Source of the DNA: an uncultured bacterium | GTDB lineage: Bacteria; Eisenbacteria; RBG-16-71-46; CAIMUX01; WJJG01 | DNA length: 64,000 nucleotides | Direction: 5' to 3' | Assembly: GCA_964506245.1 (NCBI GenBank) | Contig: CAZDKK010000001.1 | Coordinates: 289-64,288 of the forward strand | Part shown: positions 24,105-37,453 of the stretch, in pieces | Layout: each line of letters begins with the position of its first letter | Numbering within the stretch: the first letter of the stretch is position 1 | Notes under the pieces: model-generated | What the model was told of the DNA's origin: nothing | Seen by the model: only the letters and a program-made list of their open reading frames with translations | The model's database searches: none | Position numbers and translations under genes: made by a program

Positions 24105-24105
24105 C

Positions 24106-25824
24106 TCAGGGTCCCGCTTGCCCGGACGAATCGACCGGGGCTTCCTGGTATCCGCTGGGGTGAAAGCGCAGGAATGCCCCGAAGCCACCGCCGGGGACCT
24201 CTTCGAACCAGATGGGCTCGAAGTACTTGGATTGGCGCCGTATGAAGGGATGCAGGATCTTGAGCACATCCTCGTAGGGAATGCTCGAGACGTGCACCAC
24301 CGTCACACCGCGCTGGCGCAGGTGATCCAGCATGCGCGCGTCGTCGGGTTCGCGCGGAAAAGAGACGGCCTCCAGCCCGGTGACGTAACGGAAGATGTTC
24401 GACTTGCGATCCAGCACGATCTCGCGCGGCGACAGGTTCTCATGCGCCCAGCCCAGGGCGTTGAAGTAGGCCTCCCAGCGGGGCGGATAATGCCGAACCT
24501 CGCCTGCATAGGCTGCAAGCCGCTGGCCGGCGAGGACGACGATGATCACCAGCAGCGCGGGCAGCACGAGAGCGCCGGGACGACGTAGCCCGGGCCGGCG
24601 CGCGGCTGCGTTCAACCACGCATCGCGCAGTCCCAGCGCGACGAGCAGGAAGCAGAGAGGCAGGATGGGGAGCACGAAGCGCACACTCGCCCAGATCGGG
24701 GGCCAGGCCAGGCAGATCGCAAGAAAAGCCGCCGTATAGGCAACCGTGACCGGCAGTCGTCGGGCCATCCGAACCAGACCGAGAAGCAGGAGGAGGCCCA
24801 CCAGCACCCCGCTCCAGGCCGGTAGCACCGGTGGCGGCGTGATCTCGGCCGTATAGGTGCTGCAGGCCGCATAGGGCACGAGGGCATGGGCGATGTCGAT
24901 GCAGAAGTACTGGCGGCCGTTCTGTGCCAGGCGATCGACCAGCGCCGGGAGGTTCAGCGTGCCCTCGTTGGGCAGATAGGGATTGATGTACCGAATCTGC
25001 TGCAGGTAGCTCTCGCCCTCGCCGCCGGCGAGCGCGCTGTGAAGCACCCAGGGGATGAGGACCACGGCGCACAGCACGGCGCTCACGACCGCGGCCCGCC
25101 CCTGTCGTCGCAGCAGGAGGACCAGGGGCAGCGCGGCCAGGACAGCGATGCCCACGGTGCGGATGTAGAAGGCCGCCCCGGCGGCGACAGCCCAGGGCAA
25201 GAGGGCCCGCGTGTGGACGAGCCACGGTGCGCCGGCGATCCGACGCCCGCGCTTCTCATGCCCGGGGTCCTGGCTCCCGGCGATGTGGACGACCCGGTCC
25301 GTGGCGCGCTCGCCCAGCCAGAGCGCGATGACGCTGGCGAGCAGAAACGGGATCTCGGACATCACGTAGTGCGAGAACTCGACGACGGAGAGGATGAGCA
25401 TCGCGGCCCCGGCGATGGCGAAGGCCGCCCAGGAAGGCCCGGGTGGTGCGCTCCGGGGCCCGACCTTCACGGGGGGCGCACCCCGCGACACCGCCCGCTC
25501 GGCCAGCCACAGGAGTCCGACCCCCGCGGCGGCATAGCACAGGACGGACAGGACCTTGCCCGCCATGAATCCGGTGCCGAAGAGGAGCTGCAAGGGCACG
25601 AGCAGCAGGGGGAAGAGCGGTGGGTACTTCGAGCTGGCCCACAGGTTGCCCTCGCGCCACACCTTCTGGGCCAGCAGGATGTAGTCGACGTTGTCGCCGT
25701 TGACGTAGAGCTTGGGATCGAACGTGATGCCCGAGACCATGAGCAGGGGCACGATCAGCAGCAGGGCCCGGGCGCGAAAGGAGCCGAGGAGGTAACCGGC
25801 ATCGCGCTCTTGCTTGCGGGCCAC
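24106..25824 (-). CDS. GT-C-fold membrane glycosyltransferase family protein (ArnT / PMT_2, GT39/GT83-like)
   Basis: N-terminal TM, then a first extracytoplasmic loop with an acidic motif (YVNGDNVDYILLAQKV). Twelve or more TM helices and a C-terminal soluble domain. The architecture is typical of undecaprenyl/dolichyl-phosphate-sugar-dependent transferases. Confidence 0.7.
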   Translation of the reverse strand: MARKQERDAGYLLGSFRARALLLIVPLLMVSGITFDPKLYVNGDNVDYILLAQKVWREGNLWASSKYPPLFPLLLVPLQLLFGTGFMAGKVLSVLCYAAAGVGLLWLAERAVSRGAPPVKVGPRSAPPGPSWAAFAIAGAAMLILSVVEFSHYVMSEIPFLLASVIALWLGERATDRVVHIAGSQDPGHEKRGRRIAGAPWLVHTRALLPWAVAAGAAFYIRTVGIAVLAALPLVLLLRRQGRAAVVSAVLCAVVLIPWVLHSALAGGEGESYLQQIRYINPYLPNEGTLNLPALVDRLAQNGRQYFCIDIAHALVPYAACSTYTAEITPPPVLPAWSGVLVGLLLLLGLVRMARRLPVTVAYTAAFLAICLAWPPIWASVRFVLPILPLCFLLVALGLRDAWLNAAARRPGLRRPGALVLPALLVIIVVLAGQRLAAYAGEVRHYPPRWEAYFNALGWAHENLSPREIVLDRKSNIFRYVTGLEAVSFPREPDDARMLDHLRQRGVTVVHVSSIPYEDVLKILHPFIRRQSKYFEPIWFEEVPGGGFGAFLRFHPSGYQEAPVDSSGQAGP

Positions 25825-25996: not shown

Positions 25997-28276
25997 TCAG
26001 GACCAGGGCAGCCCCAGCCTTTGCCAGACCGATTCCCCGTCGGGAATGCGTCCGGGCTTGAGGTGCCGGTAGGTCGTGAACAGGAACCAGGCCAGCGGGG
26101 TCACCCCCAGACCGATGATGACCAAGTCGGGCAGCAGCCGGATCTGGCCCAGGAACTTCACCATGGGACGCTCGAAGAAGGCGGCATCGCGCGCAGCCCA
26201 GATCCCCTCGCGGAAGCTCGTCCAGGCCTGAGCAATGCCGACCGGGAAGAGCGTGATCAGCACCATCAGCAGCAACCCCACGTTCAGACCGAAGAAGGAG
26301 ACCCTGAGCAGCCGATCGTTCCAGTACTGCTTCTCCACCAGCCCGCGCCAGGAGAAGAGCAGCAGGGCGATCGACAGCATGCCGTAGGTGCCGAAGAGCG
26401 CCGCGTGACCATGGTTCATCGTCAGGTAGGTGCCGTGCTCGAAGTAGTTGACGATCGGGAGATTGATCAGGAATCCGAAGACCCCGGCACCGAGGAAGTT
26501 CCAGAAGGAAGAGGCCACGAGGAAGTAGAGAGGCCAGCGATACGGGAATTCCCGTCCCTCTTTGCGGATCGACTTGTACTCCATCAAGCCGCGCACGACG
26601 ATGCCGAAGAGCGGCACCGGTTCCAGCGATGAGAAGACCGCCCCCAGGCCCAGCCAGAGAGACGACCCACCGTACCAGAAGTAGTGGTGGGCGACGCCGA
26701 CGATGCCGCTCAGGAAGACGATCGTGGCCGTGAAGTAAGAGACGACCAAAGCATCGCGCGCCGAGGCGAGACCCATGGTGACCAGCAGCACCGAGATCAC
26801 GGCCACGCCAAAGAACTCGAAGATGCTCTCGACCCAGATGTGCACGACGAACCAGCGCCAGTAGTCGGCAACGCTCAGGTGCGTTCCGCGCCCATAGAAG
26901 AGGCCGAAAGCGAAGAAGGCCACGACCAGGATCGCGCTGAAGACATAGAAGGCGACGAGCTGGTGGAACTCGTCGGTGGAGGCCCGGCGCAGGCTGCCCG
27001 CCACGGCGCGGTAGACGATGGCGAGCCAGGCGAGCAGGCCCACGAAGAGCAGGATCTGCCAGAGTCGACCCAGCTCCAGGTACTCCCAGCCCTGATGTCC
27101 GAGCCAGAACCACCAGTTCCCCAGACCGCCTTTGATTCCGGCCACCTCCCCGATCAAGCTGCCGCCTGCCACGACCAGAATCGCGGCGAACAGGAGCTGG
27201 ACCAACAGGCCCTGCCGGCGGGGTTCGCGGCCGCCGACGATGGGCGCGAGGTAGATGGCGGATGCCACCCAGGTCGTGGCAATCCAGAAGATCGCGAGCT
27301 GCAGGTGCCAGGATTTCGCCCAGCTGTAGGGAATCAGGGACGCCACCGCCGGGATGTAGAAGCGCGAGGGGTGAACGGTGTAGTGGGCCAAGAGACCGCC
27401 GAACGAGGTCTGCACGAGGAAGAGCAGGATGACGACCAGGAAGTACTTGGCGGCCTTCTGCTGGCTGGAGGTGAGCGGCATGTCGATCAGCTTCTCGGCC
27501 AGCGGCACCCCCTTGCTCGGCCCGTACCAGATCTTGTAATAGTGCACGAGATAGATGAACAGGCCCAGGATCAAGAACAGCGCCAGGATTCCACCCAGCG
27601 TCCATAGATAGACTTCGCTGGTCGGCGCATTGCCGACGCTCGGATCCGGCGGCCAGTTGTTCGTGTAGCTGTAGTTCTTGTCCGGGCGATTGGTCGAAGC
27701 GGCCCAAGCGGTCCAGAAGAAGAAGCAGGCGATCTGCCGGCGCTCCTCCGGCGAGACGATGGTATTGGGCAGGAACCCGTAGTCCGAGTTGCCCGCGCCG
27801 AAAGTCTCTTCCCAGAAGCGTTCGTTTGCGGCGATGGCGTTGGCCTGCGCGACGGTCAGTCGCAGAGTGCCCGTACCCGGGTCGTAGCGGTTGGTCCTCA
27901 TCTCCGTGCGGACCTTGAGGTCGAGAATCCGGCGCTGCTCATCCCGGAGCTGGTCCACCGGGAACCCGTAGATCTCCTGGCAGAGCTGCGCGCGAATCTC
28001 CGTCCCGAGCAGGTGCACCGTCACCGCGGAGAACTCCATCCCGCGCTGGGAACCGTGGCCCCAGACGCTGCCGTGGTCCATCAGCCCGTAGCGCTGATAG
28101 ACGTCCTGGCCGGCCAGGATGTCGGCGCGGGTGATGAGGGCACGGCCCTCGGGCGCCATCACCCGTTCGGGGTAGGGGGGCACCTGACGGTTGGCGGACA
28201 GGCCGCCGATCAGCAGGATGGCCATGGCCGAGAAGAAGGCCAGGATGGCCGCCCACTTCAACTTGGTCAGAGACAT
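25997..28276 (-). CDS. norZ: Quinol-dependent nitric oxide reductase (qNOR, single-subunit NorZ/NorB type)
   Basis: ATG at 28276 with a GAGGAGG RBS. N-terminal TM plus a periplasmic NorC-like extension, then a heme-copper oxidase subunit-I-like core with 12 or more TM helices and conserved His ligands (HHYFWYG, NHGHAALFG). Total 760 aa. Confidence 0.9.
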   Translation of the reverse strand: MSLTKLKWAAILAFFSAMAILLIGGLSANRQVPPYPERVMAPEGRALITRADILAGQDVYQRYGLMDHGSVWGHGSQRGMEFSAVTVHLLGTEIRAQLCQEIYGFPVDQLRDEQRRILDLKVRTEMRTNRYDPGTGTLRLTVAQANAIAANERFWEETFGAGNSDYGFLPNTIVSPEERRQIACFFFWTAWAASTNRPDKNYSYTNNWPPDPSVGNAPTSEVYLWTLGGILALFLILGLFIYLVHYYKIWYGPSKGVPLAEKLIDMPLTSSQQKAAKYFLVVILLFLVQTSFGGLLAHYTVHPSRFYIPAVASLIPYSWAKSWHLQLAIFWIATTWVASAIYLAPIVGGREPRRQGLLVQLLFAAILVVAGGSLIGEVAGIKGGLGNWWFWLGHQGWEYLELGRLWQILLFVGLLAWLAIVYRAVAGSLRRASTDEFHQLVAFYVFSAILVVAFFAFGLFYGRGTHLSVADYWRWFVVHIWVESIFEFFGVAVISVLLVTMGLASARDALVVSYFTATIVFLSGIVGVAHHYFWYGGSSLWLGLGAVFSSLEPVPLFGIVVRGLMEYKSIRKEGREFPYRWPLYFLVASSFWNFLGAGVFGFLINLPIVNYFEHGTYLTMNHGHAALFGTYGMLSIALLLFSWRGLVEKQYWNDRLLRVSFFGLNVGLLLMVLITLFPVGIAQAWTSFREGIWAARDAAFFERPMVKFLGQIRLLPDLVIIGLGVTPLAWFLFTTYRHLKPGRIPDGESVWQRLGLPWS

Positions 28277-28323
28277 TGCAGCCTCCTCGCTGGCGGGGCC
28301 CCTTGCTGGGCGCCCCCCAAGGT

Positions 28324-28728
28324 TCACGGTTGGATCCGGAAGTCCGTCAGCCTGGTCTCGGACAGGTGCTTCATGATCTCGGCCCATACGTTCTCGAAGA
28401 CCGCTGCGAAGACGCACTGCCCCGGCCCGCAGATGGGATGGCCCAGCAGGCACCGGGGCGGGGCCAGCGGGCCCTCGATCGCCTCCAAGACCTCGCGCAC
28501 GGAGAGCTGCCGCGGGTCGACGGCTAGGCTGAATCCGCCGGCCGCGCCGCGGGTGGACTCGAGGAACCCGGCGCTGACCAGTCGATGGAGCACCTTGGCC
28601 ACGTGAGACTCGGAGCAGCGCAGCCGGCCCGCGATGTCGGGTGCCGAGAGACGCGCGTCGGGACCGGCGGCGGCGATATAGGCCAGGGCATGGATGGCCA
28701 GGTTGGACGCCTCGGAGAAGGAGAGCAC
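28324..28728 (-). CDS. nsrR: Rrf2-family transcriptional regulator, NsrR-like NO sensor
   Basis: GTG start at 28728 with a GGGAGG RBS. Rrf2 wHTH (LSFSEASNLAIHALAYIA...SHVAKVLHRL) and a three-Cys cluster (CLLGHPICGPGQC) for Fe-S binding. It sits directly upstream of qNOR on the same strand. Confidence 0.8.
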   Translation of the reverse strand: MLSFSEASNLAIHALAYIAAAGPDARLSAPDIAGRLRCSESHVAKVLHRLVSAGFLESTRGAAGGFSLAVDPRQLSVREVLEAIEGPLAPPRCLLGHPICGPGQCVFAAVFENVWAEIMKHLSETRLTDFRIQP

Positions 28729-28748
28729 GAGACCTCCCTGGGTTAATC

Positions 28749-28779
28749 CCGAATTCGGAGTCAGAATACAGGAATTTCC
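28749..28779. promoter_or_regulatory. Candidate operator palindromes in the nsrR upstream region (CCGAATTCGG and GGAATTTCC)
   Basis: A perfect 10-bp palindrome and a 4-1-4 palindrome lie 20-50 nt upstream of the nsrR start. No match to a characterised NsrR box is claimed. Coordinates are approximate. Confidence 0.2.
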
Positions 28780-28814
28780 CCTGGGGCACAATGGCGGGTG
28801 AGGCCGCTGAGCCA

Positions 28815-29706: not shown

Positions 29707-30066
29707 TCAGGTGATTCCCAGCTCGGTCAGACGTGCGCGGGCCTCGGCCTCGGTTTCCCGCACGTTCAGCACACCCTCCAGACCGACGATGCCCATGACG
29801 CAAAGCACCCGGGGCGAACAGCTGTACACCGACATGGCTCCCCCGATCTGCTGTGCACGCGCCAGCAGGCGCACCAATATGCCGATGCCGCCGCTGCTCA
29901 TATATCGTACGCCGCTCATGTCGATGAGAAGGGCTGGCGCCCCCGGGCCTACCCGATCCGAAACCCCGTCCCACAATGCAGCCGCGCCGAGCGCATCGAG
30001 GTTCCCCTCAAGCCTCACGCGATGGCAATGCTTGAGTTCCGTGTCCCGTTCACAGACCACGCGCAT
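29707..30066 (-). CDS. STAS-domain anti-sigma-factor antagonist (SpoIIAA-like)
   Basis: 119 aa with the conserved phosphorylatable-serine region (LLIDMSGVRYMSSGGIGILV). Confidence 0.8.
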   Translation of the reverse strand: MRVVCERDTELKHCHRVRLEGNLDALGAAALWDGVSDRVGPGAPALLIDMSGVRYMSSGGIGILVRLLARAQQIGGAMSVYSCSPRVLCVMGIVGLEGVLNVRETEAEARARLTELGIT

Positions 30067-30229
30067 CGCTCAGGCCTCCCCAGCCGCTCACCCGATGCGG
30101 AAATCCGCATCCTGTGAAGGAAAAACCCCCCGCATCTTCCTCGGAAGTCCGCACCGCACCGCCGGCCGCCCCTGGGGCATCCTGCCCCAACCATCCCAAT
30201 CTGCACCGCTTAGTTGCGGCCTCTCGCGG

Positions 30230-30246
30230 AGGAACGATACTTGCAC
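30230..30246 (+). promoter_or_regulatory. Candidate sigma54 (-24/-12) promoter upstream of the octad-repeat protein gene
   Basis: aGGaACG-N4-TTGCA, with the GG and GC elements 12 nt apart as in the consensus TGGCACG-N4-TTGCA. The -12 element TTGCA is perfect. It lies about 85 nt upstream of the ATG at 30332. A receiver-less sigma54 EBP gene is adjacent. Confidence 0.35.
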
Positions 30247-30331
30247 TCCCCCAGGCCAGATCCAGCGCTTCCTGCGATGGATCTGGGTTGAGACAGGAAG
30301 CTACCCGTTAATCCTAAGCAAGGAGGTCGCC

Positions 30332-30940
30332 ATGTCCACTCATTCGTTCAAGCGCCCCACCACCGTTGCTTCGGAGGCGTGTCCGCCCCCTGCAGGAGCG
30401 ACGACCACCGGTGCAGCAGCCATCACTCCCGAGGAGTTTGAGAAGCTCACCCCGGAGCAGATCGCCGCCCTCACGCCCACGCAGATTCGGGCTCTGAGCC
30501 CGAAGTGCTTGTCGCGCCTGAGCCCCAAGCAAGCTGCCTCCCTCACGCCGAAGTGCTTGGTGACGCTGGCCCCGAAGCAGGTTGCCACCATCGCCCCCAA
30601 GTGCTTTGCGACCCTGGCCCCGCGGCAGTTCGCCAGCATCGCCCCGAAGTGTCTGGCGACGCTGGCCCCGAAGCAGATTGCGAGCGTGGCCCCCAAGTGC
30701 TTTGCGACGCTGGCCCCGAGGCAGTTCGCCAGCCTCGCCCCGAAGTGTCTGGCGACGCTGGCCCCCAAACAGGTCGCGAGCGTCGCCCCGAAGTGTCTGG
30801 CGACGCTGGCCCCGAAGCAGTTCGCCAGCCTCGCCCCGAAGTGTCTGGCGACGCTGGCCCCCAAGCAGGTCGCCGCGCTCGCCCCGCGCCAGGTGGCCGC
30901 GCTGTCGCCCCGGCAGGTCGCGGCCCTGCCGATGGGCTAG
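30332..30940 (+). CDS. Cys/Pro-containing octad tandem-repeat protein (203 aa); no family assignment, candidate substrate/precursor of the adjacent module
   Basis: ATG at 30332 with an AAGGAGG RBS. After a 38-aa N-terminus the rest consists of 20 consecutive 8-residue repeats L-[ATS]-P-[KRET]-[QC]-h-[AS]-x, alternating LAPKCLAT / LAPKQVAS, and ends in LPMG. Confidence 0.7.
   Translation: MSTHSFKRPTTVASEACPPPAGATTTGAAAITPEEFEKLTPEQIAALTPTQIRALSPKCLSRLSPKQAASLTPKCLVTLAPKQVATIAPKCFATLAPRQFASIAPKCLATLAPKQIASVAPKCFATLAPRQFASLAPKCLATLAPKQVASVAPKCLATLAPKQFASLAPKCLATLAPKQVAALAPRQVAALSPRQVAALPMG
30446..30925 (+). repeat. Tandem repeat of about ten 48-bp units (20 x 24-bp half-units) inside the CDS, encoding the octad repeats
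   Basis: Near-identical units gccccgaagtgtctggcgacgctggccccgaagcagttcgccagcctc are read directly in the sequence. Confidence 0.85.
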
Positions 30941-30994: not shown

Positions 30995-32251
30995 TCATTC
31001 CTTGCGCTCGATGACCTCGGACAGCCTCAGCAGGTCTTCCCGATAGGCCTGGGGCAGCTTGGCGAACGCCTTGCGCAGCGCGATCATCCGCCTTCCAGGA
31101 CTGTTCCCACCGCGCTCCCAAGCGCGGATCGCCACGCGCAGTGTCTGCCCCAATTTGCGCTGCACCAGCGGAGCCAGAGACGGATCACCGGCCAGGCCGA
31201 GGGCCGCAGCCTCCAGGTTGCCGCGCTCCGCGGCGAGTGCGCGGAATCCCTCGCCCGCCAGGTAGTAGGTCAGACCGCTCCGGGAACAGACTGGAACGCT
31301 GCGCCGGGGAGAGGTGCGCCGTCGAGCGGTAAGCATGCGTTCTGCCAGCGCGATGTTGAAGTGGTACACGCGCAGCTGCTCGATCACCCAGGCACCGACC
31401 TCGCTGCCGGGCTGGAGGCGGGGGGAGCTGGCCAACCCATCACTTGGTGGAGCGTCCGAGAGCCGGTGGCGCGCGAAGACGGCGGAGACGTGCCGATCGT
31501 GGATCTCCTGGCCGCGCGCTTCAATGAGCAGCGCGCTCACGATGTTTTGAAGCTCGCGCACGTTCCCTGGATAGGCGTAGGCGAACAGGCGGCGCAGCGC
31601 AGCCGGATGGACGGGCGGGCAGGGCCCCCCGAGCTGCGCCGATCGTTCTCTGAGGAAGTGGTTGATCAACAGAGGAAGGTCTTCCCGCCGTTCGCGGAGC
31701 GGCGGCAGATGCAGCGGAAAGACGGCCAGACGGTAGTAGAGGTCACGCCGAAACTCCCCATTGCGAACCGCCCGTTCCAGGCTGCGATTGGTCGCGGCCA
31801 CCACACGCGCCTCGGTCTTGAGCTGTCGCTCCCCACCGACCGGCAGAAAGACGCCGTCCTGCAACACGCGCAGGAGACGGACCTGCGCGGAGGGAGACAT
31901 CTCGGCAATCTCATCCAGGAAGACGGTTCCGTGACCTGCGCGCTCGAACAGCCCCCGATGGGCGCGCACCGCGCCCGTGAAAGCCCCGGGCACGTGGCCG
32001 AAGAGTTCGCTCTCCAGCAGAGACTCGGGAATCGCCCCGCAGTTGATGGTCTCGAAAGGCTGCCGGTCGCCGCAGGAGATCTCGTGCACAATCGTCGCGA
32101 TCAGCTCCTTGCCCGTTCCCGACTCGCCTTCCAGCAGTACGGGGCAGTGCACCGCGGCTACCTTCGCGACATCCTCGAGAACCGCGCGAATGACCGCGCT
32201 CTCTCCCACACAGCGGAGAAACGCCGGATGTTGCGTCTCGCTCGGGGCCAT
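30995..32251 (-). CDS. Sigma54-dependent transcriptional activator lacking a receiver/sensor N-domain (AAA+ domain plus C-terminal DNA-binding region)
   Basis: ATG at 32251 (MAPSETQHPAF). Motifs LLEGESGTGKELIA, ESELFGHVPGAFTGA (GAFTGA), FLDEIA, RELQNIV. Putative Fis-like HTH, then an extra C-terminal region of about 90 aa. Confidence 0.85.
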   Translation of the reverse strand: MAPSETQHPAFLRCVGESAVIRAVLEDVAKVAAVHCPVLLEGESGTGKELIATIVHEISCGDRQPFETINCGAIPESLLESELFGHVPGAFTGAVRAHRGLFERAGHGTVFLDEIAEMSPSAQVRLLRVLQDGVFLPVGGERQLKTEARVVAATNRSLERAVRNGEFRRDLYYRLAVFPLHLPPLRERREDLPLLINHFLRERSAQLGGPCPPVHPAALRRLFAYAYPGNVRELQNIVSALLIEARGQEIHDRHVSAVFARHRLSDAPPSDGLASSPRLQPGSEVGAWVIEQLRVYHFNIALAERMLTARRRTSPRRSVPVCSRSGLTYYLAGEGFRALAAERGNLEAAALGLAGDPSLAPLVQRKLGQTLRVAIRAWERGGNSPGRRMIALRKAFAKLPQAYREDLLRLSEVIERKE

Positions 32252-32400
32252 GGGGTGCGTGACCCCCCATCTGTCTCTCGGTAACCGCGCAGCCGCCACG
32301 CTGTCACGTCGGCCACGGTCGGGAGCCGCAACCTCCGTCGAGGTCACCGTCCCGTTTGCGGAGCCCGCCGGTCGATCGCGGGCCGTGAGGAAATGCCGCG

Positions 32401-33216
32401 ATGCGTTTCCGCGCTGCGAGGACCAAGCCGCAGTGGGCGTTCCTGCTGTCCCTGGGCCTGCTGGCGGCATCATCGCCGGCGCCCGCGCAGTCAAGCGCGG
32501 CGCCGGCGGACACGGATGGCGATCCGAGCCTCTCCGCCGATTCGCGCATCTTTCCCGGCATCCTGCTGCCGGCCAGCACAGCCCTGATCAAGGCCCCGCG
32601 CGACGAGAGGATCGCATCGGTCGCGGTCCACGTCGGTGACGTCGTGAGGAAGGGACAACTCCTGATCGAGCTGGTGGCCGACGAAGAACGCGTGACCCAA
32701 GGACGCGCAGCGGCGGTGCTCGAGCAGGCGCGGGACGAGCTCGACCGCGTGCGGCGGCTGTCCGCGGAACACCTGACCTCCGACGAGGCCCTCGAGGTGG
32801 CCGAGACCGCCTACCGGATCGCGCGCGCCGATCACGAGCTGGACTCGCTGCGCTACGCGGAATCCTCGATCCGGGCCCCCTTCGACGGCGTGGTCGCGGA
32901 GCTCCGCGTGGACCCTGGAACATCGGTCGAGACCGGTGACAACCTGGTGCGCGTTGCCTCCAGGTCGCTGCTGCGCCTGGAGGTTCTGCTCCCCGAGGAG
33001 ATGCTGCCAGCCTTCACCGTCGCGACGGTGGTGGAGGTGCAGCCCACCCATCCCGACACGACGCTCCACTTGCCGGTGTACGCACGTCCGCTGGTGGTGG
33101 ACCCGAGCAGCGGCACGTTTACGCTGGAGATCGAGGTCCCCAACAAGGCTGGGCGCCTGATTCCTGGTGTAAGCTGCCAGGTGAGCGTGCGAACAGCGTC
33201 GGGCGATGCACCGTGA
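32401..33216 (+). CDS. Short periplasmic HlyD-family membrane-fusion/adaptor protein (biotin-lipoyl-like plus beta-barrel)
   Basis: Signal peptide. Lipoyl-like hairpin motifs (ILLPASTALIKAPRDERIASVAVHVGDVVRKGQLLIEL... IRAPFDGVVAELRVDPGTSVETGDNLVRVAS). TGA overlaps the GTG of the next gene. Confidence 0.75.
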   Translation: MRFRAARTKPQWAFLLSLGLLAASSPAPAQSSAAPADTDGDPSLSADSRIFPGILLPASTALIKAPRDERIASVAVHVGDVVRKGQLLIELVADEERVTQGRAAAVLEQARDELDRVRRLSAEHLTSDEALEVAETAYRIARADHELDSLRYAESSIRAPFDGVVAELRVDPGTSVETGDNLVRVASRSLLRLEVLLPEEMLPAFTVATVVEVQPTHPDTTLHLPVYARPLVVDPSSGTFTLEIEVPNKAGRLIPGVSCQVSVRTASGDAP

Positions 33217-35273
33217 ACCCTGCGCGGGTCTACCAGCTCCGCCACGACCTGGTCATTCGGCGGCGCGTCTTCGGCGAATCGGTCAAGTACTTGGTCAAGG
33301 ACCCGCAGCGCCTCGAGTACTACACCATCGACGAGTGGACCTACCAGCTGCTCTCCTTGTGCGATGGCCACCGCGACCTGGGGGCGCTGAGCGCCGCTGC
33401 CCGTGAACGTCTTCCGGACATGGACCTGAACCCGTTGACGATTCTGGAGTTCTGCGAGACCTATCGGCGTTTCCACTTCTTCGAGGACAGCTGGGAGCGG
33501 AATATCCTGCTGATCGAGCAACGCCGCGGCTCGCGCCTGAAGCGCTTGCGCAAGGCATTCGCCAACCCGCTCGAGATCCATCTGCCAGCCTGGGACCCGG
33601 ACCTCTTCTTCAGCCGCATCGTCCGGCCCCTGGGTTTCCTGTACACGCGATCGGCGCTGGTGGTCTACGCCACACTGATCCTGCTGGCGATCTGGCTCTC
33701 CGCCACCCACGCGGATGAGTTCGCGCTGTCCTTCCGGGAGCTGTGGGTGATTCCCGGGAAGACGGGCTTGGGCCTGATCGCGCTGTGGGCGGCGCTGCTC
33801 CTGACCGTCGTGATGCACGAGGTCGGGCATGGCCTGACCTGCAAGCACTACGGCGGCGGCGTCCACAAGATCGGCTTTCTCCTGCTCTACTTCAATCCCT
33901 GCATGTTCTGCGACGTGACCGAGAGTTACTTCTTCGATGACCGGCGCAAGAAGCACGCGGTGACCCTGGCGGGCGGACTGGTCGATCTGCTCACCGCCGC
34001 GGCCGCGACGTTTGTCTGGTACTTCACGGTGCCGGATCTCTTCCTGAACGCCGTGGCCCACCGGGTGGCGATCTTCAACGGCGTGACGGGCATCTTGGTC
34101 AACTACAATCCGCTGATGAAATACGATGGTTACTTCCTGTTCAGCGATCAGCTCGGGATCCCGAATATGCGGGGCGAGTCGTTCCACTTCCTGGGCAACC
34201 GCGTCCGCGGGCTCTTGCGACTGCCGCACGAGGAGGAGCTGGTCTCCGCGCGCGAGCGCCGGATCTTCTGGATCTACGGGATCTGCGCGTTCGCCTACAG
34301 CGTCTTCGTGCTGTGGTTCGTCCTGCGCTTCGTCGGGGGGTGGCTCGTGCATCTCCTCCGGGGCGCCGGGTACGTCCTGACCGCCGCGTTGCTGTTCCTG
34401 ATGACCAAGGGCTACTCGCGCAGGCTATTCGGCTTCGCGCGTTTCGTGGCGCTGGACAAGGGCGGGCATTTCCGCCGCTACCGGGTGCCCTACCTGGCGG
34501 GACTGGCGGCAACGCTGGCCGCGCTCTTCCTGCTGCCCGTCCCGCGCCACGTGCGGGGGGAATTCGTGCTGCACCCGGGGAGCGAGGTCGTGGTGCGGGC
34601 CGAGGTGACAGGCGTGATCGAGTCGGTGCATGCTGACGAGGGGGATCGCGTGGCCGCGGCAAGCACACCGGTCGTGCTGCGCGCCGAGAACGTGATTCTC
34701 GGGGTGGAGGAAGCGCGCAGCCTGCGGCAGTCGGCCGGGGCGCAGCGCGCCGCAGCGCAGGTCGCCGGGGAGCCAGCCGCCGCGGTGGCTGCTGCGGCCA
34801 GGATGACCGCTGGGCAGGCGCTCGAGCATTACTACCGCTCCCGCGAGGTGTATCTGCGCCCACCGGCGCCGATCAGCGGCATCGTATTGACGCCCCGCCT
34901 GCGCGAAAGGGTCGGTCTGGCGTACGTTCCGGGAGACACCCTCTACGTGGTCGGCGAACTGGGCACGCTCCGCGCCGAGGTTCTCCTGGACGAACGTGAC
35001 ATGGGGCTGTTGACCCCCGACCAGCCGGTAGAACTGCGCACGCGCGCGACCGCGGGGCAGAGGCTCCTGGGTCACATCGAGCAGATCTCCCAGGAGCCTT
35101 CGGCCCTGCGGACTCGGCCGCTCTACCGGGTCGTCGTGCGCGTCGAGAACCCGGAGGAGATCTGCCGGCCGGGGCAAGAGGGCGTGGCCCGGTTCGCTGC
35201 GGGAAGGCTCTCGTTGATCGGTCATGCTCTGTCTGGGCTGGCCCGGACGTTCCGGATCGAGTTCTGGGTGTGA
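33213..35273 (+). CDS. Tripartite fusion: N-terminal PqqD-like RRE domain, membrane M50 (site-2 protease type, HExxH) metalloprotease, C-terminal HlyD-like domain
   Basis: Residues 5-95 follow the PqqD/RRE pattern (RVYQLRHDLVIRRR...YYTIDEWTYQLLSLCDGHRDLGAL...LTILEFCETYRRFHFF). Multi-TM core with HEVGHGLTCKHYGG. C-terminal HlyD-like beta-barrel/lipoyl motifs (VRAEVTGVIESVHADEGDRV..., VVRVENPEE..RPGQEGVARF). Confidence 0.75.
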   Translation: MNPARVYQLRHDLVIRRRVFGESVKYLVKDPQRLEYYTIDEWTYQLLSLCDGHRDLGALSAAARERLPDMDLNPLTILEFCETYRRFHFFEDSWERNILLIEQRRGSRLKRLRKAFANPLEIHLPAWDPDLFFSRIVRPLGFLYTRSALVVYATLILLAIWLSATHADEFALSFRELWVIPGKTGLGLIALWAALLLTVVMHEVGHGLTCKHYGGGVHKIGFLLLYFNPCMFCDVTESYFFDDRRKKHAVTLAGGLVDLLTAAAATFVWYFTVPDLFLNAVAHRVAIFNGVTGILVNYNPLMKYDGYFLFSDQLGIPNMRGESFHFLGNRVRGLLRLPHEEELVSARERRIFWIYGICAFAYSVFVLWFVLRFVGGWLVHLLRGAGYVLTAALLFLMTKGYSRRLFGFARFVALDKGGHFRRYRVPYLAGLAATLAALFLLPVPRHVRGEFVLHPGSEVVVRAEVTGVIESVHADEGDRVAAASTPVVLRAENVILGVEEARSLRQSAGAQRAAAQVAGEPAAAVAAAARMTAGQALEHYYRSREVYLRPPAPISGIVLTPRLRERVGLAYVPGDTLYVVGELGTLRAEVLLDERDMGLLTPDQPVELRTRATAGQRLLGHIEQISQEPSALRTRPLYRVVVRVENPEEICRPGQEGVARFAAGRLSLIGHALSGLARTFRIEFWV

Positions 35274-35350: not shown

Positions 35351-37453
35351 ATGGGTGTCATGAAAGACCCCAACAGCGTGTCGGGCGAGGCCAGGGACAG
35401 AGAGTTGGAGGCCCTCTACACCCAGGTGGTGCAGAACGCCGCTCGTCTCATGGTCGTCCATGAGGCGAGCAGCATCCTGCGGTCCACGCACGACCCAGAA
35501 GAACTGGCGCGCGGTCTCCTGACCACGGTGACCGAGGCGGTCCTGGCCGGCTCGGGGTGTGTCGCCGGCCTGGAGGGCGATGAGCTGAAGGTCCTGGCCA
35601 CCAGCGGTCTGACGGATGAGGAGGTGGAAACCCTCGCTGCTAACGCGAGCGAGGCTCAGGCCTGGTTCGCAGTGGCCGATGGCGAAGATCCGCAGACACG
35701 CCAGCAGCTCACCGAGGTGCTGGGCTTCGCGGTGGGTGAGTCAGCCGAGAGTGGGGAGGACGATGGAGACGCTCCGGATGAGCCCGAGTGGCGCGGGGAG
35801 GCCGACGACGAAGAACCCGAGTCCTACGAGCACCTGTGGGACGAAGCCGAGGAGGCGGCCGAGTCCGAGCCTGCAGCGGGGGGATCGGAGTTCGGTCCAT
35901 CCGCCGCGCCCGCCTTCGAGCTCTACCTTCCCCTGCGCGTGGAGGACGAGGTGCTGGGGGTGCTCGTCCTCGGCCCGCGCGTGGACGGACAGGAGTACCG
36001 CGAAGACGATGTGCAACTCGCCCGGTCGCTCTCCGCACACCTGGCGCTGGCCCTCAACCACGCGGCCCTCTTCGCCGAGCGCAGTCGTCGCATCGAGCAG
36101 TTGTCGGTCCTGCTTCGGATATCCCGGGAGATCACGAGCACCCTCGACCTTGATCGCGTTCTCCAGACCGTCGTCCAGATGATGGCCTTGGTCGTCCCCA
36201 ACCGGAGGTCCGTGCTGGCCCTGACCTCGGCCCGCGGCGTCTCGCTCCGGGCCAGCTCGGATCCCTCGTTCCAGCCCAAGGAGGTCAGCCGCGATTCCAT
36301 CCTCCCCATCCTGCAGTGGGCCCAGGATGCGCGCCAGCGCATCAACACCCACCGTGCCGCGCTGGAGCAAGACGCCGAGGCCGAAGGCCGGGATCTGCTT
36401 CTGCCGTGGCTCAGCCGAGAGCGTGGACCGCGTGGGTTGGCGGTGATGCCCCTCGAGGACGATCAGGGCGTGCTCGGACTGCTCGCGATCGAGACCGACA
36501 GCGACGCCATGCCCCTGGACGAGAACCACGAGGAGCTCGTCAGCATCCTTGCCAACCAGGCGACGGTCGCGGTCCGCAACGCTGAGCTCTACCAGCAGGT
36601 TCCGATGATCGGCTTCCTCGAGCCGATCCTGGGCAAGGTGCGGCGCGCGCGCGCGGCGGGGTCACGCCGGCTGCTGATCCGGGCGGGGGTCGTGATGGCG
36701 ATCCTGGCCGCCGGTTTCCTCATTCCGATCCCCGCGTGGGTCTCGGGTGATGCCCAGCTACGGCCATTCGCGCCGATCGCTTTGCGCGCCGGGACAGAGG
36801 GTACCGTCGATGAAGTGCTGGTCCGCGAGGGTCAGTCGATCCGGGCCGGGACCGTGGTCGCGCGCTTGCGCCGCGATGAGTTCGAGGTCGAGCTCGAGCA
36901 GACCCGCGCCGAGACCCGCCGGGCCCAGGCCGAGGCGGCCCAGGCGCGGATCGCTGGCGATCTCGCCACGTATCGCGCCCGCCAGGCGAAGCTCGGCGAG
37001 CTGACGCGGACGGAGCAGTTCCTGGTCTCCGAGCTCGAGCGCACCGAGCTGGTGGCGCCCTCCGACGGCGTTGTTCTCACGCAGGATGTGGAGCGACGCC
37101 AGGGCGCCCACCTGCGACCCGGCGAGACCCTGCTCGAGCTGGCCGATCTCGCCACGATGGAGGTAGAGGTCTCCCTCGCGGGGCACGACATCCGGTCCAT
37201 CGGTCAGGGAAGCCGCGCGCGGCTCAAGGTGCAGGCCTACCCCGGTCGCACGTTCCGGGGCGAGGTGACACGCATCGCGCCGAGGTCGGACCGCGACGGG
37301 ACCTTTCGGGTGACGATGCGACTGCCCAACACGGACGGGGCGCTGCGTCCTGGCATGACTGGGCGGGCTCACGTGGAGATTCCCGGGCGCCCAGCGCTGG
37401 TCTCCCTCTTCGCACCGGTTGTGCGCCGGTTGCGGCTGGGGCTCTGGCTGTGA
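35351..37453 (+). CDS. GAF-domain(s)-HlyD fusion protein: cytoplasmic GAF sensor region, one TM helix, periplasmic HlyD-type domain
   Basis: GAF-like segments (LYLPLRVEDEVLGVLVLGPR...; second: VLALTSARG...GLAVMPLEDDQGVLGLLAIETD...ATVAVRNAELY). TM (LLIRAGVVMAILAAGFLIPIPAW). HlyD features (coiled coil EVELEQTRAETRRAQAE..., LVAPSDGVVLTQDVE..GAHLRPGETLLELAD, MTGRAHVEI). Confidence 0.7.
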   Translation: MGVMKDPNSVSGEARDRELEALYTQVVQNAARLMVVHEASSILRSTHDPEELARGLLTTVTEAVLAGSGCVAGLEGDELKVLATSGLTDEEVETLAANASEAQAWFAVADGEDPQTRQQLTEVLGFAVGESAESGEDDGDAPDEPEWRGEADDEEPESYEHLWDEAEEAAESEPAAGGSEFGPSAAPAFELYLPLRVEDEVLGVLVLGPRVDGQEYREDDVQLARSLSAHLALALNHAALFAERSRRIEQLSVLLRISREITSTLDLDRVLQTVVQMMALVVPNRRSVLALTSARGVSLRASSDPSFQPKEVSRDSILPILQWAQDARQRINTHRAALEQDAEAEGRDLLLPWLSRERGPRGLAVMPLEDDQGVLGLLAIETDSDAMPLDENHEELVSILANQATVAVRNAELYQQVPMIGFLEPILGKVRRARAAGSRRLLIRAGVVMAILAAGFLIPIPAWVSGDAQLRPFAPIALRAGTEGTVDEVLVREGQSIRAGTVVARLRRDEFEVELEQTRAETRRAQAEAAQARIAGDLATYRARQAKLGELTRTEQFLVSELERTELVAPSDGVVLTQDVERRQGAHLRPGETLLELADLATMEVEVSLAGHDIRSIGQGSRARLKVQAYPGRTFRGEVTRIAPRSDRDGTFRVTMRLPNTDGALRPGMTGRAHVEIPGRPALVSLFAPVVRRLRLGLWL

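What the first reader, a model, noticed from the sequence alone, without database searches (positions are those of the whole stretch)
30332..30940. Unusual Cys/Pro octad tandem-repeat protein (20 x LxPxQ/C-h-x-x), encoded by near-perfect 48-bp DNA repeats
The protein is almost entirely a strict 8-residue periodicity, alternating LAPKCLAT and LAPKQVAS half-units (the LxPx[QC]hxx octads).

It has a 38-aa non-repeat N-terminus (MSTHSFKRPTTVASEACPPP...) and ends LPMG. There is no signal peptide and no TM helix.

The DNA repeat units are nearly identical, which suggests recent expansion or homogenisation and possible copy-number variability.

A periodicity of 8 with an invariant Pro is not one of the common repeat classes (pentapeptide, hexapeptide, TPR, LRR, collagen). 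Evenly spaced cysteines could be sites for cross-linking, metal binding or post-translational modification.

Its location beside the RRE-M50-HlyD operon and a sigma54 EBP makes it a candidate multi-core precursor, substrate or structural cargo.
Basis: seen in the sequence. Interest (0 to 1): 0.7.

Follow-up and report, generated by a model that had tools for sequence, protein, structure and literature searches.

The report
Cationic octad-repeat protein beside peptide-export genes
This is a real small gene made of 21 eight-residue repeats of a catalogued but unstudied type, and it appears to be the sigma-54-switched cargo of a neighbouring, undescribed machine that would bind, cut and export a peptide.

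Summary
The ORF at 30332..30940 (+) is real: 202 aa, 21 in-phase octads with Pro in every one. Eight Cys octads alternate with Gln octads. The DNA repeats are not near-perfect: 48-bp units average 77% identity, and pN/pS is 0.44.

The repeat class is catalogued. It passes Pfam ALTTAQ_rpt, has more than 1,000 relatives (mostly giant proteins), and matches the designed 8-mer "helical screw" HeliScrew4 (PDB 9ZEM, E=7e-21).

What is new is the context. In six independent loci a small, strongly basic octad protein (165-288 aa, 15-30 octads) lies between a STAS gene and a sigma-54 activator. Each has a conserved N-terminal [ST]-R-x-[FI]-x-[KR]-P motif and its own sigma-54-type promoter. It always sits next to three HlyD-type adaptor genes. 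One of these is fused to a PqqD-like peptide-recognition domain and an intact M50 intramembrane protease.

In Acidobacteria the same machinery sits beside sigma-54-driven 26-53-aa basic peptides.

Best reading (about 0.45): an inducible, leader-bearing substrate that is cut and exported. Nothing here tests cleavage or export. The cysteines are lineage-specific: present in two lineages, absent in four.

The parts
30332..30940 (+). Octad-repeat protein gene (202 aa; net charge about +18)
   Evidence: ATG start with a Shine-Dalgarno sequence. GC3 is 0.87, like neighbouring genes. It hits Pfam ALTTAQ_rpt. Orthologs are found in five other loci.
30332..30421 (+). Non-repeat N-terminus (30 aa) carrying the conserved motif S-T-H-S-F-K-R-P; candidate leader or recognition motif
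   Evidence: The motif [ST]-R-x-[FI]-x-[KR]-P aligns in all six family members, followed by a variable linker.
30422..30925 (+). Array of 21 octads (residues 31-198). The central part is eight 48-bp double units, xAPKC[LF]AT + LAP[KR]Q[VFI]AS
30320..30326 (+). Shine-Dalgarno sequence AAGGAGG
   Evidence: Read directly from the sequence. The same AAGGAGG or GGAGG is present in the orthologs.
30230..30245 (+). Sigma-54-type -24/-12 promoter element AGGAACGATACTTGCA
   Evidence: An equivalent element lies 68-96 nt upstream of the ATG in all six loci. None is found upstream of the HlyD or STAS genes.
30097..30108 (.). Palindrome GCGGAAATCCGC; candidate activator-binding site (UAS)
   Evidence: It is the only zero-mismatch match in the 64-kb window. 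Similar GGAAATCC palindromes are seen upstream in L006, L007, L009 and L010.
30141..30152 (.). Second half-palindromic site TCGGAAGTCCGC; candidate UAS
   Evidence: One-mismatch match, 44 bp from the first site.
29707..30066 (-). STAS-domain protein (anti-sigma-factor-antagonist type), divergent from the octad gene
   Evidence: Pfam STAS E=4.9e-13; NCBIfam TIGR00377. It is conserved next to the octad gene in all six loci.
30995..32494 (-). Sigma-54 enhancer-binding protein, convergent with the octad gene. The likely true start is M82 (about nt 32251), which leaves no N-terminal sensor domain
   Evidence: Sigma54_activat matches residues 95-260 of the longest ORF, E=4e-63. Orthologs are 424-442 aa.
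32401..33216 (+). Short HlyD/MFP-type periplasmic adaptor
   Evidence: Pfam HlyD_3 and HlyD_D23; NCBIfam RND_mfp, 118.7 bits.
33213..35273 (+). Fusion of a PqqD-like RRE, an M50 intramembrane metalloprotease (HEVGH at 202, NPLMKYDG at about 299) and HlyD
   Evidence: NCBIfam daptide_HExxH E=5e-51 (below the family cutoff); YydH/LiaK E=1e-9. HExxH is conserved in all orthologs. PqqD is hit by 12 of 18 N-terminal domains. The AF2 model has pLDDT 82 and its top PDB hits are TbiB1, PqqD and the CteB RRE.
35351..37453 (+). Fusion of two GAF domains with HlyD
   Evidence: Pfam GAF_3, GAF, HlyD_D23.

Best explanation
The gene encodes a small, strongly basic protein that most likely folds as a rod of very short helices, one per octad or per pair of octads. 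This is an alpha-helical screw or alpha-solenoid of the ALTTAQ type.

It is the regulated output of a conserved six-gene module. The adjacent sensor-less sigma-54 activator, probably with the STAS protein, switches on the octad gene from its own -24/-12 promoter.

The protein's conserved N-terminal motif ([ST]-R-x-[FI]-x-[KR]-P) would be bound by the cytoplasmic PqqD-like recognition domain of the neighbouring membrane protein. That protein's M50 intramembrane protease would cut the chain. Its HlyD domain, together with the two other HlyD-type adaptors, would pass the repeat part across the envelope.

In this lineage every second octad carries Cys where relatives have Gln. This would give an exported rod eight evenly spaced thiols for disulfide cross-linking or metal binding.

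Shown here: the gene, the repeat class, the synteny, the promoter elements, the RRE and the intact M50 site. Inferred: the helical-screw fold, binding, cleavage, export and any role for the thiols.
For: 1. The gene is real and selected. It has a Shine-Dalgarno sequence and ATG, host-like GC3, and pN/pS 0.44 between units.

2. Repeat class. Pfam ALTTAQ_rpt scores above the gathering threshold, and the ortholog scores E=8e-35. HeliScrew4 (9ZEM) matches at E=7e-21 and 3e-25. That structure is a crystallised 8-mer helical screw with Pro at helix position N1 and an apolar core. The AF2 model has pLDDT 72 and helices in phase with the octads.

3. Synteny. Six loci carry STAS(-) | octad(+) | EBP(-) next to HlyD, RRE-M50-HlyD and GAF-HlyD. 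Identity of the M50-HlyD protein to the window's ranges from 44 to 100%. The two blocks occur in two different relative orders, and the flanking genes are unrelated.

4. Promoters. A sigma-54-type element lies 68-96 nt upstream of the octad ATG in all six loci, and none lies before the HlyD or STAS genes. The chance expectation is roughly 0.09 per intergenic region, derived by me from the background count.

5. The partner is built to handle a peptide. HExxH and NPxxxxDG are intact. It is related to the daptide and YydH/LiaK leader proteases. The M50 protease EpeP is thought to both cleave and export its peptide (PMC10885120).

6. The N-terminal motif is conserved while the linker and repeat number vary.

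7. Analogues exist in Acidobacteria. The same machinery plus an EBP sits beside sigma-54-driven basic mini-genes: a 53-aa peptide with (LQRAS)x6 in L011, and 26- and 27-aa peptides in L013.
Against: - There is no direct evidence for binding, cleavage or export.
- The module has no inner-membrane transporter (ABC, RND or MFS) and no outer-membrane channel.
- A folded protein of 165-288 aa is far larger than known M50 or RRE peptide substrates.
- The window's own RRE is only a weak PqqD hit (E=0.09), and the Foldseek E-values are modest (1e-2).
- The L002/L006 -12 element reads TTGT rather than TTGC.
- One EBP relative sits directly beside STAS with no octad gene between them (no DNA was available).
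- AF2 was run on a single sequence. In the central region it predicts 13-14-residue helices per 16-mer rather than one helix per octad. Foldseek did not list 9ZEM in its top 50.
Confidence: 0.45

Rival explanations
1. A cytoplasmic partner or feedback regulator. The octad rod stays in the cell and acts on the regulatory side of the module, for example by holding the sensor-less sigma-54 activator or the STAS protein in check, as PspA does for PspF. Alternatively it binds a polyanion such as nucleic acid through its one Lys or Arg per octad. On this reading the HlyD/M50 complex is the signal source rather than its exporter.
For: The activator lacks an N-terminal sensor domain, like PspF. The octad gene is the only gene in the module with a sigma-54 promoter. 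The protein has no signal peptide. It is strongly cationic, with K+R 21-38 against D+E 3-8. The EBP-STAS pairing also exists without an octad gene between them.
Against: There is no similarity to PspA or to any known regulator. Repeat number (15-30) and octad sequence vary widely, which fits a specific protein-protein regulator poorly. This reading does not explain the conserved N-terminal motif next to an RRE-bearing protease, or the 26-53-aa peptides at the same place in Acidobacteria.
Confidence: 0.22
2. A multi-core precursor. The M50 protease or other proteases cut the array into many octa- or hexadeca-peptides (LAPKCLAT/LAPKQVAS), possibly modified at Cys, which are then released. This would resemble the repeat precursors of fungal ustiloxin-type RiPPs.
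For: An RRE and a leader-type protease are encoded nearby. Each unit holds a basic residue. The L011 analogue is also a repeat, (LQRAS)x6.
Against: No modifying enzyme is conserved in the module. Radical-SAM genes lie within about 7 kb in L006 and L007 only, and not at a fixed position. What is conserved across orthologs is the helix-forming pattern (Pro, the apolar positions, period 8), not a peptide sequence. Cys is absent from four of six lineages. The sequence matches a crystallised folded helical screw.
Confidence: 0.1
3. An ordinary ALTTAQ-type structural or surface repeat protein that merely lies beside the HlyD genes, with no functional link to them.
For: ALTTAQ repeats are common and occur in many unrelated architectures: giant proteins, and fusions with cohesin, SH3 or Ca-binding C-terminal domains.
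Against: Adjacency survives a rearrangement and divergence of the partner down to 44% identity, while the flanking genes change completely. This family has its own N-terminal motif, a basic residue in every octad, and a dedicated promoter.
Confidence: 0.15
4. A non-coding or mis-assembled tandem repeat that happens to be open in one frame.
For: High-GC tandem repeats are open in several frames. Four overlapping ORFs were listed here.
Against: Only the + frame has an ATG, a Shine-Dalgarno sequence and a Pfam hit. Units differ mostly at synonymous sites (pN/pS 0.44). Six independent assemblies have the gene in the same place, with the frame, start motif and C-terminal end conserved.
Confidence: 0.02

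Closest known systems
Pfam PF20080 ALTTAQ repeat proteins (uncharacterised bacterial octad repeats)
   Same: The 8-residue period and the h-[STA]-[TP]-x-Q-h-A-A motif. The HMM score is above the gathering threshold. All eight sampled phmmer hits are ALTTAQ proteins.
   Different: Typical members are 500-5,500 aa and multi-domain. This one is a stand-alone protein of 202 aa with its own N-terminal motif, a Lys or Arg in every octad, Ala rather than Ser or Thr before the Pro, and Cys replacing Gln in alternate octads. Cys at that position is rare: 51 of about 3,300 octads, 43 of them from one unrelated eukaryotic protein. No paper mentions the ALTTAQ family.
HeliScrew4 (PDB 9ZEM), a designed 8-mer alpha-helical screw (bioRxiv 10.64898/2025.12.04.691947)
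   Same: Octads of the form TPEQ[IVF]AAL, with Pro at helix position N1 and an apolar core. Sequence match is E=7e-21 for the window protein and 3e-25 for the L001 ortholog.
   Different: It is a designed, acidic, soluble protein with no biological context. The authors found only one natural PDB example (7QLR) and called the fold 'dark matter'. The AF2 model here agrees with one helix per octad only at the two ends of the array.
Mesothelin / stereocilin / otoancorin superhelical repeats
   Same: A weak Pfam Mesothelin hit and the best Foldseek PDB hit (7ued, E=2e-3). Both are alpha-solenoids.
   Different: The scores are below threshold (12.3 bits against a cutoff of 25.8; TM 0.33). The mesothelin repeats are much longer and eukaryotic. 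This is a resemblance only.
Epipeptide systems YydF/YydH and EpeX/EpeP, and the daptide protease (M50 leader proteases of RiPP pathways)
   Same: The neighbouring protein's membrane domain is related to these proteases (NF041824 E=5e-51; NF058609 E=1e-9). EpeP is thought to both cleave and export its peptide (PMC10885120).
   Different: The scores are below the family cutoffs. Here the protease is fused to an RRE and to an HlyD adaptor. There is no radical-SAM epimerase or other tailoring enzyme and no ABC transporter in the module. The candidate substrate is a repeat protein of 165-288 aa rather than a peptide of about 50 aa.
Psp system (PspF activator / PspA)
   Same: A sigma-54 activator without a sensor domain sits next to its sigma-54-dependent target gene, in a module linked to the cell envelope. 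The comparison itself rests on general knowledge of the Psp system.
   Different: The octad protein shows no sequence similarity to PspA. The gene order and the partner proteins differ.

Membership tests
Pfam PF20080 ALTTAQ repeat | HMM score at or above the gathering threshold (26.4 bits) | tested here: met
   Window protein: 35.8 bits, E=6.2e-9. L001 ortholog: 118.7 bits, E=7.8e-35.
Pfam PF20080 ALTTAQ repeat | Tandem 8-residue units with the motif h-[ST]-[TP]-x-Q-h-x-x | tested here: met
   21 in-phase octads. Pro is present in 21 of 21. Gln is in 12, replaced by Cys in 8 and Glu in 1.
Pfam PF20080 ALTTAQ repeat | Usual architecture: long, multi-domain proteins | tested here: not met
   The best 150 relatives are mostly 500-5,500 aa. 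This protein is a stand-alone 202 aa. This is a typical feature rather than a defining one.
Alpha-helical screw (HeliScrew, 9ZEM) | 8-mer repeat with Pro at N1, a small polar N-cap (S/T/D/N) and an apolar core | tested here: inconclusive
   Pro and the apolar positions 1 and 6 are present in every octad. The N-cap is Thr or Ser in 7 of the 21 octads (five at the N-terminal end, one at residue 72, one near the C-terminal end) and Ala in the other 14.
Alpha-helical screw (HeliScrew, 9ZEM) | Three-dimensional superhelix of one short helix per 8-mer | tested here: inconclusive
RiPP precursor peptide | A cognate RiPP recognition element (PqqD-like) encoded in the cluster | tested here: met
   The N-terminal domain of the 33213-35273 product hits PF05402 in 12 of 18 family members (best E=1.9e-6; window member E=0.09). 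The AF2 model has pLDDT 82. Foldseek ranks 1-10 are all RRE-type chains (TbiB1, PqqD, lasso B1, CteB, TigE), and SkfB appears at rank 28.
RiPP precursor peptide | A leader peptidase encoded in the cluster | tested here: met
   M50 domain with HEVGH and NPxxxxDG, conserved in all orthologs. It is related to the daptide and YydH/LiaK proteases, though below their cutoffs.
RiPP precursor peptide | A conserved recognition (leader) motif in the precursor | tested here: met
   [ST]-R-x-[FI]-x-[KR]-P is present at the N-terminus of all six members. Whether the RRE binds it was not testable.
RiPP precursor peptide | A post-translational modification enzyme conserved in the cluster | tested here: not met
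   The conserved module holds only STAS, EBP and three HlyD-type proteins. The protein therefore cannot be filed as a RiPP precursor, although it may be handled like one.
Type I secretion (RTX-type) substrate | C-terminal secretion signal or GGxGxD repeats, plus a dedicated ABC transporter with an MFP | tested here: not met
   The protein ends AALPMG directly after the last octad. There is no ABC transporter in the module; only the MFP/HlyD proteins are present.
Sigma-54-dependent gene | -24 GG and -12 GC elements with exact spacing, upstream of the gene | tested here: met
   AGGAACGATACTTGCA at 30230-30245. Equivalent elements lie 68-96 nt upstream of the ATG in all six loci; L002/L006 has TTGT at -12.
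Sigma-54-dependent gene | A cognate enhancer-binding protein and upstream binding sites | tested here: inconclusive
   The EBP is adjacent in all six loci. The palindromes at 30097 and 30141 are plausible UAS, but matches with up to two mismatches are not enriched in the window (56 found against 50.7 expected). Binding was not testable.

The most novel reading that the evidence does not exclude
RRE-M50-HlyD, together with two further HlyD adaptors, a STAS protein and a sigma-54 activator, forms an undescribed, widespread module found in Eiseniibacteriota-like bacteria, Acidobacteriota and others. The module produces, cuts and exports small cationic peptides on a sigma-54 signal, without tailoring enzymes and without an ABC transporter. 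In one clade the peptide has grown by tandem duplication into a natural alpha-helical-screw rod. In the window's lineage that rod carries a ladder of eight thiols. This would give a biological role to a fold recently described as protein 'dark matter'.
Probability: 0.3. Interest if true: 0.8.

Novelty: new variant of a known kind. Interest (0 to 1): 0.62.

Why it matters
Three things would follow if the main reading holds.

1. **The fold gets a biological setting.** The octad helical screw has just been crystallised as a designed protein and was reported to have essentially no natural counterparts. Here is a compact natural protein that is almost nothing but that repeat. It has clear regulation and clear partners, so its biology can be tested.

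2. **A new way to couple recognition, cutting and export.** An RRE fused to an M50 protease and an HlyD adaptor would do all three in one polypeptide, and would do so for a whole folded repeat protein. No paper holding the terms I searched describes such a module.

3. **The module is widespread.** The M50-HlyD protein has 408 relatives at E<=1e-10. In Acidobacteria the sigma-54-driven partner peptides are so small that gene callers miss them. Many such peptides may therefore be unannotated.

Tried and rejected
- **Word-indexed homology search with the repeat protein.** 8,000 candidates were collected and none scored. The word index was probably swamped by the low-complexity repeat. The exhaustive phmmer search worked instead.
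- **Exact-sequence look-ups of the octad and STAS proteins.** Neither is on record.
- **Searching with the activator's C-terminal region.** This gave only two short contigs.
- **Profile of the RRE domain against PDB sequences.** Nothing significant was found. The structure comparison was needed.
- **Palindrome enrichment.** Matches with up to two mismatches are at chance level across the window. Only the exact and one-mismatch copies upstream of the promoter stand out.
- **Sigma-54 consensus count in the window.** Three matches against 9.5 expected. The count alone is not evidence; the position conserved across loci is.
- **Link to the NorB and metallophosphoesterase genes upstream.** Rejected, because these genes are not conserved in any other locus.
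- **P0061 and P0066 as Cys-octad relatives.** Rejected. They read as unrelated low-complexity repeats; P0066's non-repeat flanks look eukaryotic to me.
- **L003.** This is a generic ALTTAQ protein next to mutL, not an ortholog.
- **Literature.** Searches for ALTTAQ, for M50 + HlyD + sigma-54, and for PqqD + M50 + HlyD found nothing relevant.
Full report
**1. The observation**

The + strand carries an ORF from an ATG at 30332 to a TAG at 30938-30940, encoding 202 aa. AAGGAGG lies at 30320-30326.

From residue 31 to residue 198 the protein is 21 consecutive in-phase octads, followed by LPMG. Pro occupies the third position of every octad. The residue two after Pro is Gln in 12 octads, Cys in 8 and Glu in 1.

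The eight repeat cysteines (59, 75... 171) are exactly 16 residues apart, because the array is built from double units: xAPKC[LF]AT + LAP[KR]Q[VFI]AS. There is no hydrophobic stretch that could be a signal peptide or TM helix (maximum 19-residue Kyte-Doolittle mean 1.03).

- There are 21 octads, not 20.
- The non-repeat N-terminus is 30 residues, not 38.
- The DNA repeats are not near-perfect. TRF gives 77% matches at period 48 and 88% at period 96. The eight 48-bp units are on average 77% identical (58-92%).
- Synonymous divergence between units is 0.38 and non-synonymous 0.17, so pN/pS is 0.44. The array is old and the protein pattern is under selection.

The antisense ORF 30340..30864 shares third codon positions, so it has the same GC3. 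It has no Pfam hit and is a shadow ORF.

**2. What kind of repeat it is**

The protein passes the gathering threshold of Pfam PF20080, 'ALTTAQ repeat' (35.8 against 26.4 bits). The L001 ortholog scores 118.7 bits.

An exhaustive phmmer search of 1.84 billion representative proteins found 1,295 proteins at E<=1e-3 and 43 at E<=1e-30. Nearly all are giant proteins of 500-5,500 aa with many matched stretches. All eight that I sampled are ALTTAQ proteins. No paper mentions the family.

Against PDB sequences, the only strong hit is 9ZEM 'HeliScrew4' (E=7e-21; 3e-25 for the L001 ortholog). This is a designed protein of 8-residue repeats (TPEQ[IVF]AAL) whose 2.2 A crystal structure is a tightly wound 'alpha-helical screw'. 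Pro sits at helix position N1, a small polar residue caps the helix, and apolar side chains fill the core. Its authors found only one natural example in the PDB and called the fold 'dark matter'.

So the class (ALTTAQ octads, alpha-solenoid or helical screw) is well supported, but the exact geometry is not settled.

Cys at the Gln position is unusual for the class. It occurs in 51 of about 3,300 motif-matching octads in the best 150 hits, and 43 of those come from one unrelated eukaryotic low-complexity protein.

**3. Orthologs and context**

Five further loci carry an ortholog in the same setting.

| Locus | Source | Length | Octads | Repeat type |
|---|---|---|---|---|
| L001 | Candidatus Eiseniibacteriota MAG | 252 aa | 26 | all Q |
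| L002 / L006 | two near-identical strains | 187 aa | 18 | APKCFAT / LAPKQVAA, one APKSFAA |
| L007 | metagenome | 222 aa | 24 | all LAPKQI[AV]A |
| L009 | metagenome | 165 aa | 15 | degenerate LPxKhhxA, no Q |
| L010 | metagenome | 288 aa | 30 | alternating LTPKQ... / IAPRA... |

Cys is therefore confined to the window and the L002/L006 lineage. What is conserved across the family is:
- the 8-residue period with Pro;
- the apolar positions;
- a Lys or Arg in every octad, giving K+R 21-38 against D+E 3-8;
- an N-terminal motif [ST]-R-x-[FI]-x-[KR]-P;
- a first 'cap' repeat ...[KR]-L-[ST/A]-x-x-E-I-x-x-L;
- an end shortly after the last octad.

L002 and L006 are identical outside the array. Inside it they differ by what looks like one 48-bp unit lost at one place and gained at another. 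This suggests ongoing unit turnover, or possibly assembly ambiguity.

In all six loci the octad gene lies between a divergent STAS gene and a convergent sigma-54 enhancer-binding protein. This trio lies directly beside three co-oriented genes: a short HlyD-type adaptor, a 686-aa protein, and a GAF-GAF-HlyD protein.

Two orders occur.
- Window and L006: STAS-octad-EBP, then the three HlyD genes.
- L001, L007, L009, L010: the three HlyD genes, then STAS-octad-EBP.

The genes outside the six differ in every lineage. Adjacency that survives a rearrangement, and divergence of the partner down to 44% identity, is good evidence for a functional unit.

**4. The partner machine**

The 686-aa protein (33213-35273) has three parts.
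- **Membrane core.** It is related to the intramembrane HExxH proteases that remove leaders in daptide and epipeptide (YydH/LiaK) pathways (NF041824 E=5e-51; NF058609 E=1e-9; both below family cutoffs). HE[VMLIF]GH at residue 202, and an NPxxxxDG motif, are conserved in every ortholog checked.
- **C-terminal third.** This is an HlyD barrel-sandwich adaptor.
- **N-terminal 100 residues.** These are a divergent PqqD-like domain. PF05402 is hit by 12 of 18 family members (best E=1.9e-6; the window member only 0.09). An AF2 model built on the family alignment (pLDDT 82; 92-96 over residues 11-90) has the strand-strand-strand-helix-helix-helix order. Its ten best PDB matches are all RiPP recognition elements: TbiB1 with its leader peptide, PqqD, lasso B1, CteB and TigE. 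The E-values are modest, at 1e-2.

A review of RiPP leader proteases notes that the M50 enzyme EpeP is thought to both cleave and export its peptide (PMC10885120). That is relevant because this module has no ABC, RND or MFS transporter.

**5. Regulation**

A -24/-12 element with correct spacing lies 68-96 nt upstream of the octad ATG in all six loci.

| Locus | Element |
|---|---|
| window | AGGAACGATACTTGCA (30230-30245) |
| L001 | TGGAACAGCCTATGCA |
| L007 | TGGAACGGACCGTGCA |
| L009 | TGGCCCGCGGCTTGCG |
| L010 | TGGCATGGACCCTGCC |
| L002 / L006 | TGGCATGGTCCTTGTT |

No such element precedes the first HlyD gene or the STAS gene.

The background rate of equally good matches is about 42 per 128 kb of both strands. 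By my arithmetic that is roughly 0.09 per intergenic region. The raw count in the window is not itself enriched.

Upstream of the window's promoter lie a perfect palindrome, GCGGAAATCCGC (30097-30108), which is the only exact copy in 64 kb, and a one-mismatch copy 44 bp away. Similar GGAAATCC palindromes occur in the other loci.

The activator's AAA+ domain starts at residue 95 of the longest ORF, and the orthologs are 424-442 aa. The true start is therefore probably M82 and there is no N-terminal sensor domain. The octad gene thus looks like the dedicated sigma-54 output of the module.

**6. Analogues in another phylum**

At about 30% identity, the RRE-M50-HlyD protein is common in Acidobacteriota and other phyla.

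In L011 (Acidobacteria) the genes HlyD and RRE-M50-HlyD are followed by a 53-aa gene, MPAKKQSTSLKKGKKIRGSK(LQRAS)x6SLE. It has the element TGGCCTGCCAGTTGCA starting 74 nt (ending 58 nt) upstream of its start codon. A sigma-54 activator comes next.

In L013 (Candidatus Acidiferrales) the module (STAS, GAF-HlyD, HlyD, RRE-M50-HlyD, EBP) flanks an 'empty' 930-bp gap. The gap holds two near-consensus sigma-54 promoters. Each is followed by a Shine-Dalgarno sequence, a 26- or 27-aa Lys-rich ORF (MAKKTLKKATKLEATKPLTIVGVGRG and MAKAKTVKKGKKLGSVKPLTKVGIGRP), and a hairpin-T-run terminator.

A third subfamily (L015) has a 56-aa ORF just upstream.

So the recurring partner of this machine is a small, basic, sigma-54-driven peptide. 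The octad proteins look like the same thing, lengthened by tandem duplication.

**7. Mechanism and rivals**

The best-supported reading (about 0.45) runs as follows.
1. On a signal transmitted through GAF-HlyD, STAS and the activator, sigma-54 transcribes the octad gene.
2. The product's N-terminal motif is bound by the RRE.
3. The M50 site cuts it.
4. The repeat rod leaves through the HlyD assembly.
5. In this lineage the rod carries eight evenly spaced thiols that could cross-link or bind metal.

Everything after transcription is inference.

The rivals are:
- a cytoplasmic regulator or polyanion binder, in the style of PspA (0.22);
- an unrelated ALTTAQ structural protein (0.15);
- a multi-core precursor chopped into octapeptides (0.10), disfavoured because no tailoring enzyme is conserved and because the fold pattern is conserved rather than a peptide sequence;
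- an artefact (0.02).

**8. Comparison, novelty and verdict**

The protein is a member of the ALTTAQ repeat class. It is not demonstrably a RiPP precursor, because no modification enzyme is conserved. It is not a type I secretion substrate.

It is a new variant in three respects. It is a minimal, cationic, stand-alone form. It has a Cys/Gln alternation that is rare in the class. It is embedded in a six-gene sigma-54 / RRE-M50-HlyD module for which I found no description.

Interest is 0.62. The repeat itself is catalogued and the cysteines are lineage-specific. The module, and the natural helical-screw cargo, are directly testable and would surprise specialists in RiPP biology and secretion.

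Noticed in passing
L013 10892-10975 (-) and 11411-11491 (-): Two uncalled mini-genes (27 and 26 aa, Lys-rich) lie in a 930-bp 'empty' gap between RRE-M50-HlyD and the sigma-54 activator of a Candidatus Acidiferrales contig. Each has a near-consensus sigma-54 promoter (11 of 12 positions), a Shine-Dalgarno sequence and a hairpin-T-run terminator.
   Followed up: partly
L011 3208-3369 (-): A 53-aa gene in an Acidobacteria MAG encodes a basic N-terminus followed by (LQRAS)x6. It has a sigma-54-type promoter at 3443 and sits between RRE-M50-HlyD and a response-regulator-type sigma-54 activator.
   Followed up: partly
L002 6628-7188 vs L006 6630-7193: Two near-identical strains have the same gene length. 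Inside the array they differ as if one 48-bp unit had been lost at one place and duplicated at another. Outside the array the genes are identical.
   Followed up: partly
window 30097-30108 and 30141-30152: A perfect palindrome GCGGAAATCCGC and a one-mismatch copy lie 44 bp apart, upstream of the sigma-54-type promoter. Related GGAAATCC palindromes occur in the same place in other loci. They are candidate activator-binding sites.
   Followed up: partly
window 30995-32494 (-): The sigma-54 activator seems to lack any N-terminal sensor or receiver domain. It has a C-terminal region of about 150 aa with no Pfam HTH_8 hit. Only two relatives of that C-terminal region were found in 5.8 billion proteins.
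   Followed up: partly
window 25997-28789 (-): A 930-aa nitric-oxide-reductase NorB-like protein combines a cytochrome-c-like domain with a haem-copper oxidase subunit I domain. The N-terminal 200 residues are unassigned.
   Followed up: no
window 16808-19996 (+): A second sigma-54 activator (1,062 aa) has a long N-terminal TPR/MalT-like region and a Fis-type HTH.
   Followed up: no
window 22332-24269 (-) and 24106-25824 (-): Two large ORFs (645 and 572 aa) with gene-like GC3 have no Pfam or NCBIfam hit. As listed, their ORFs overlap by about 160 nt, so at least one start is probably wrong.
   Followed up: no
window 37463-38029 (-): A small protein fuses a ferredoxin-thioredoxin-reductase catalytic-chain domain with a rubredoxin-like domain. 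It lies directly downstream of the GAF-HlyD gene and is not conserved in the other loci.
   Followed up: no
L015 7404-7574 (+): A 56-aa ORF (MDRTPKKEVRLRAEELEQRIAPDATGNPGNNNPPLNNTNNPGNEGTGGQVSTGSHP) lies just upstream of an 807-aa M50-HlyD relative. It looks like a leader-plus-core peptide.
   Followed up: no
L001 10932-11631 (+): An extra ORF with a signal-peptide-like start (MNWERSPLMFPRLLMAIVVLPGLALGAAA...) lies between the octad gene and the activator in the Eiseniibacteriota MAG. It is absent from the window.
   Followed up: no
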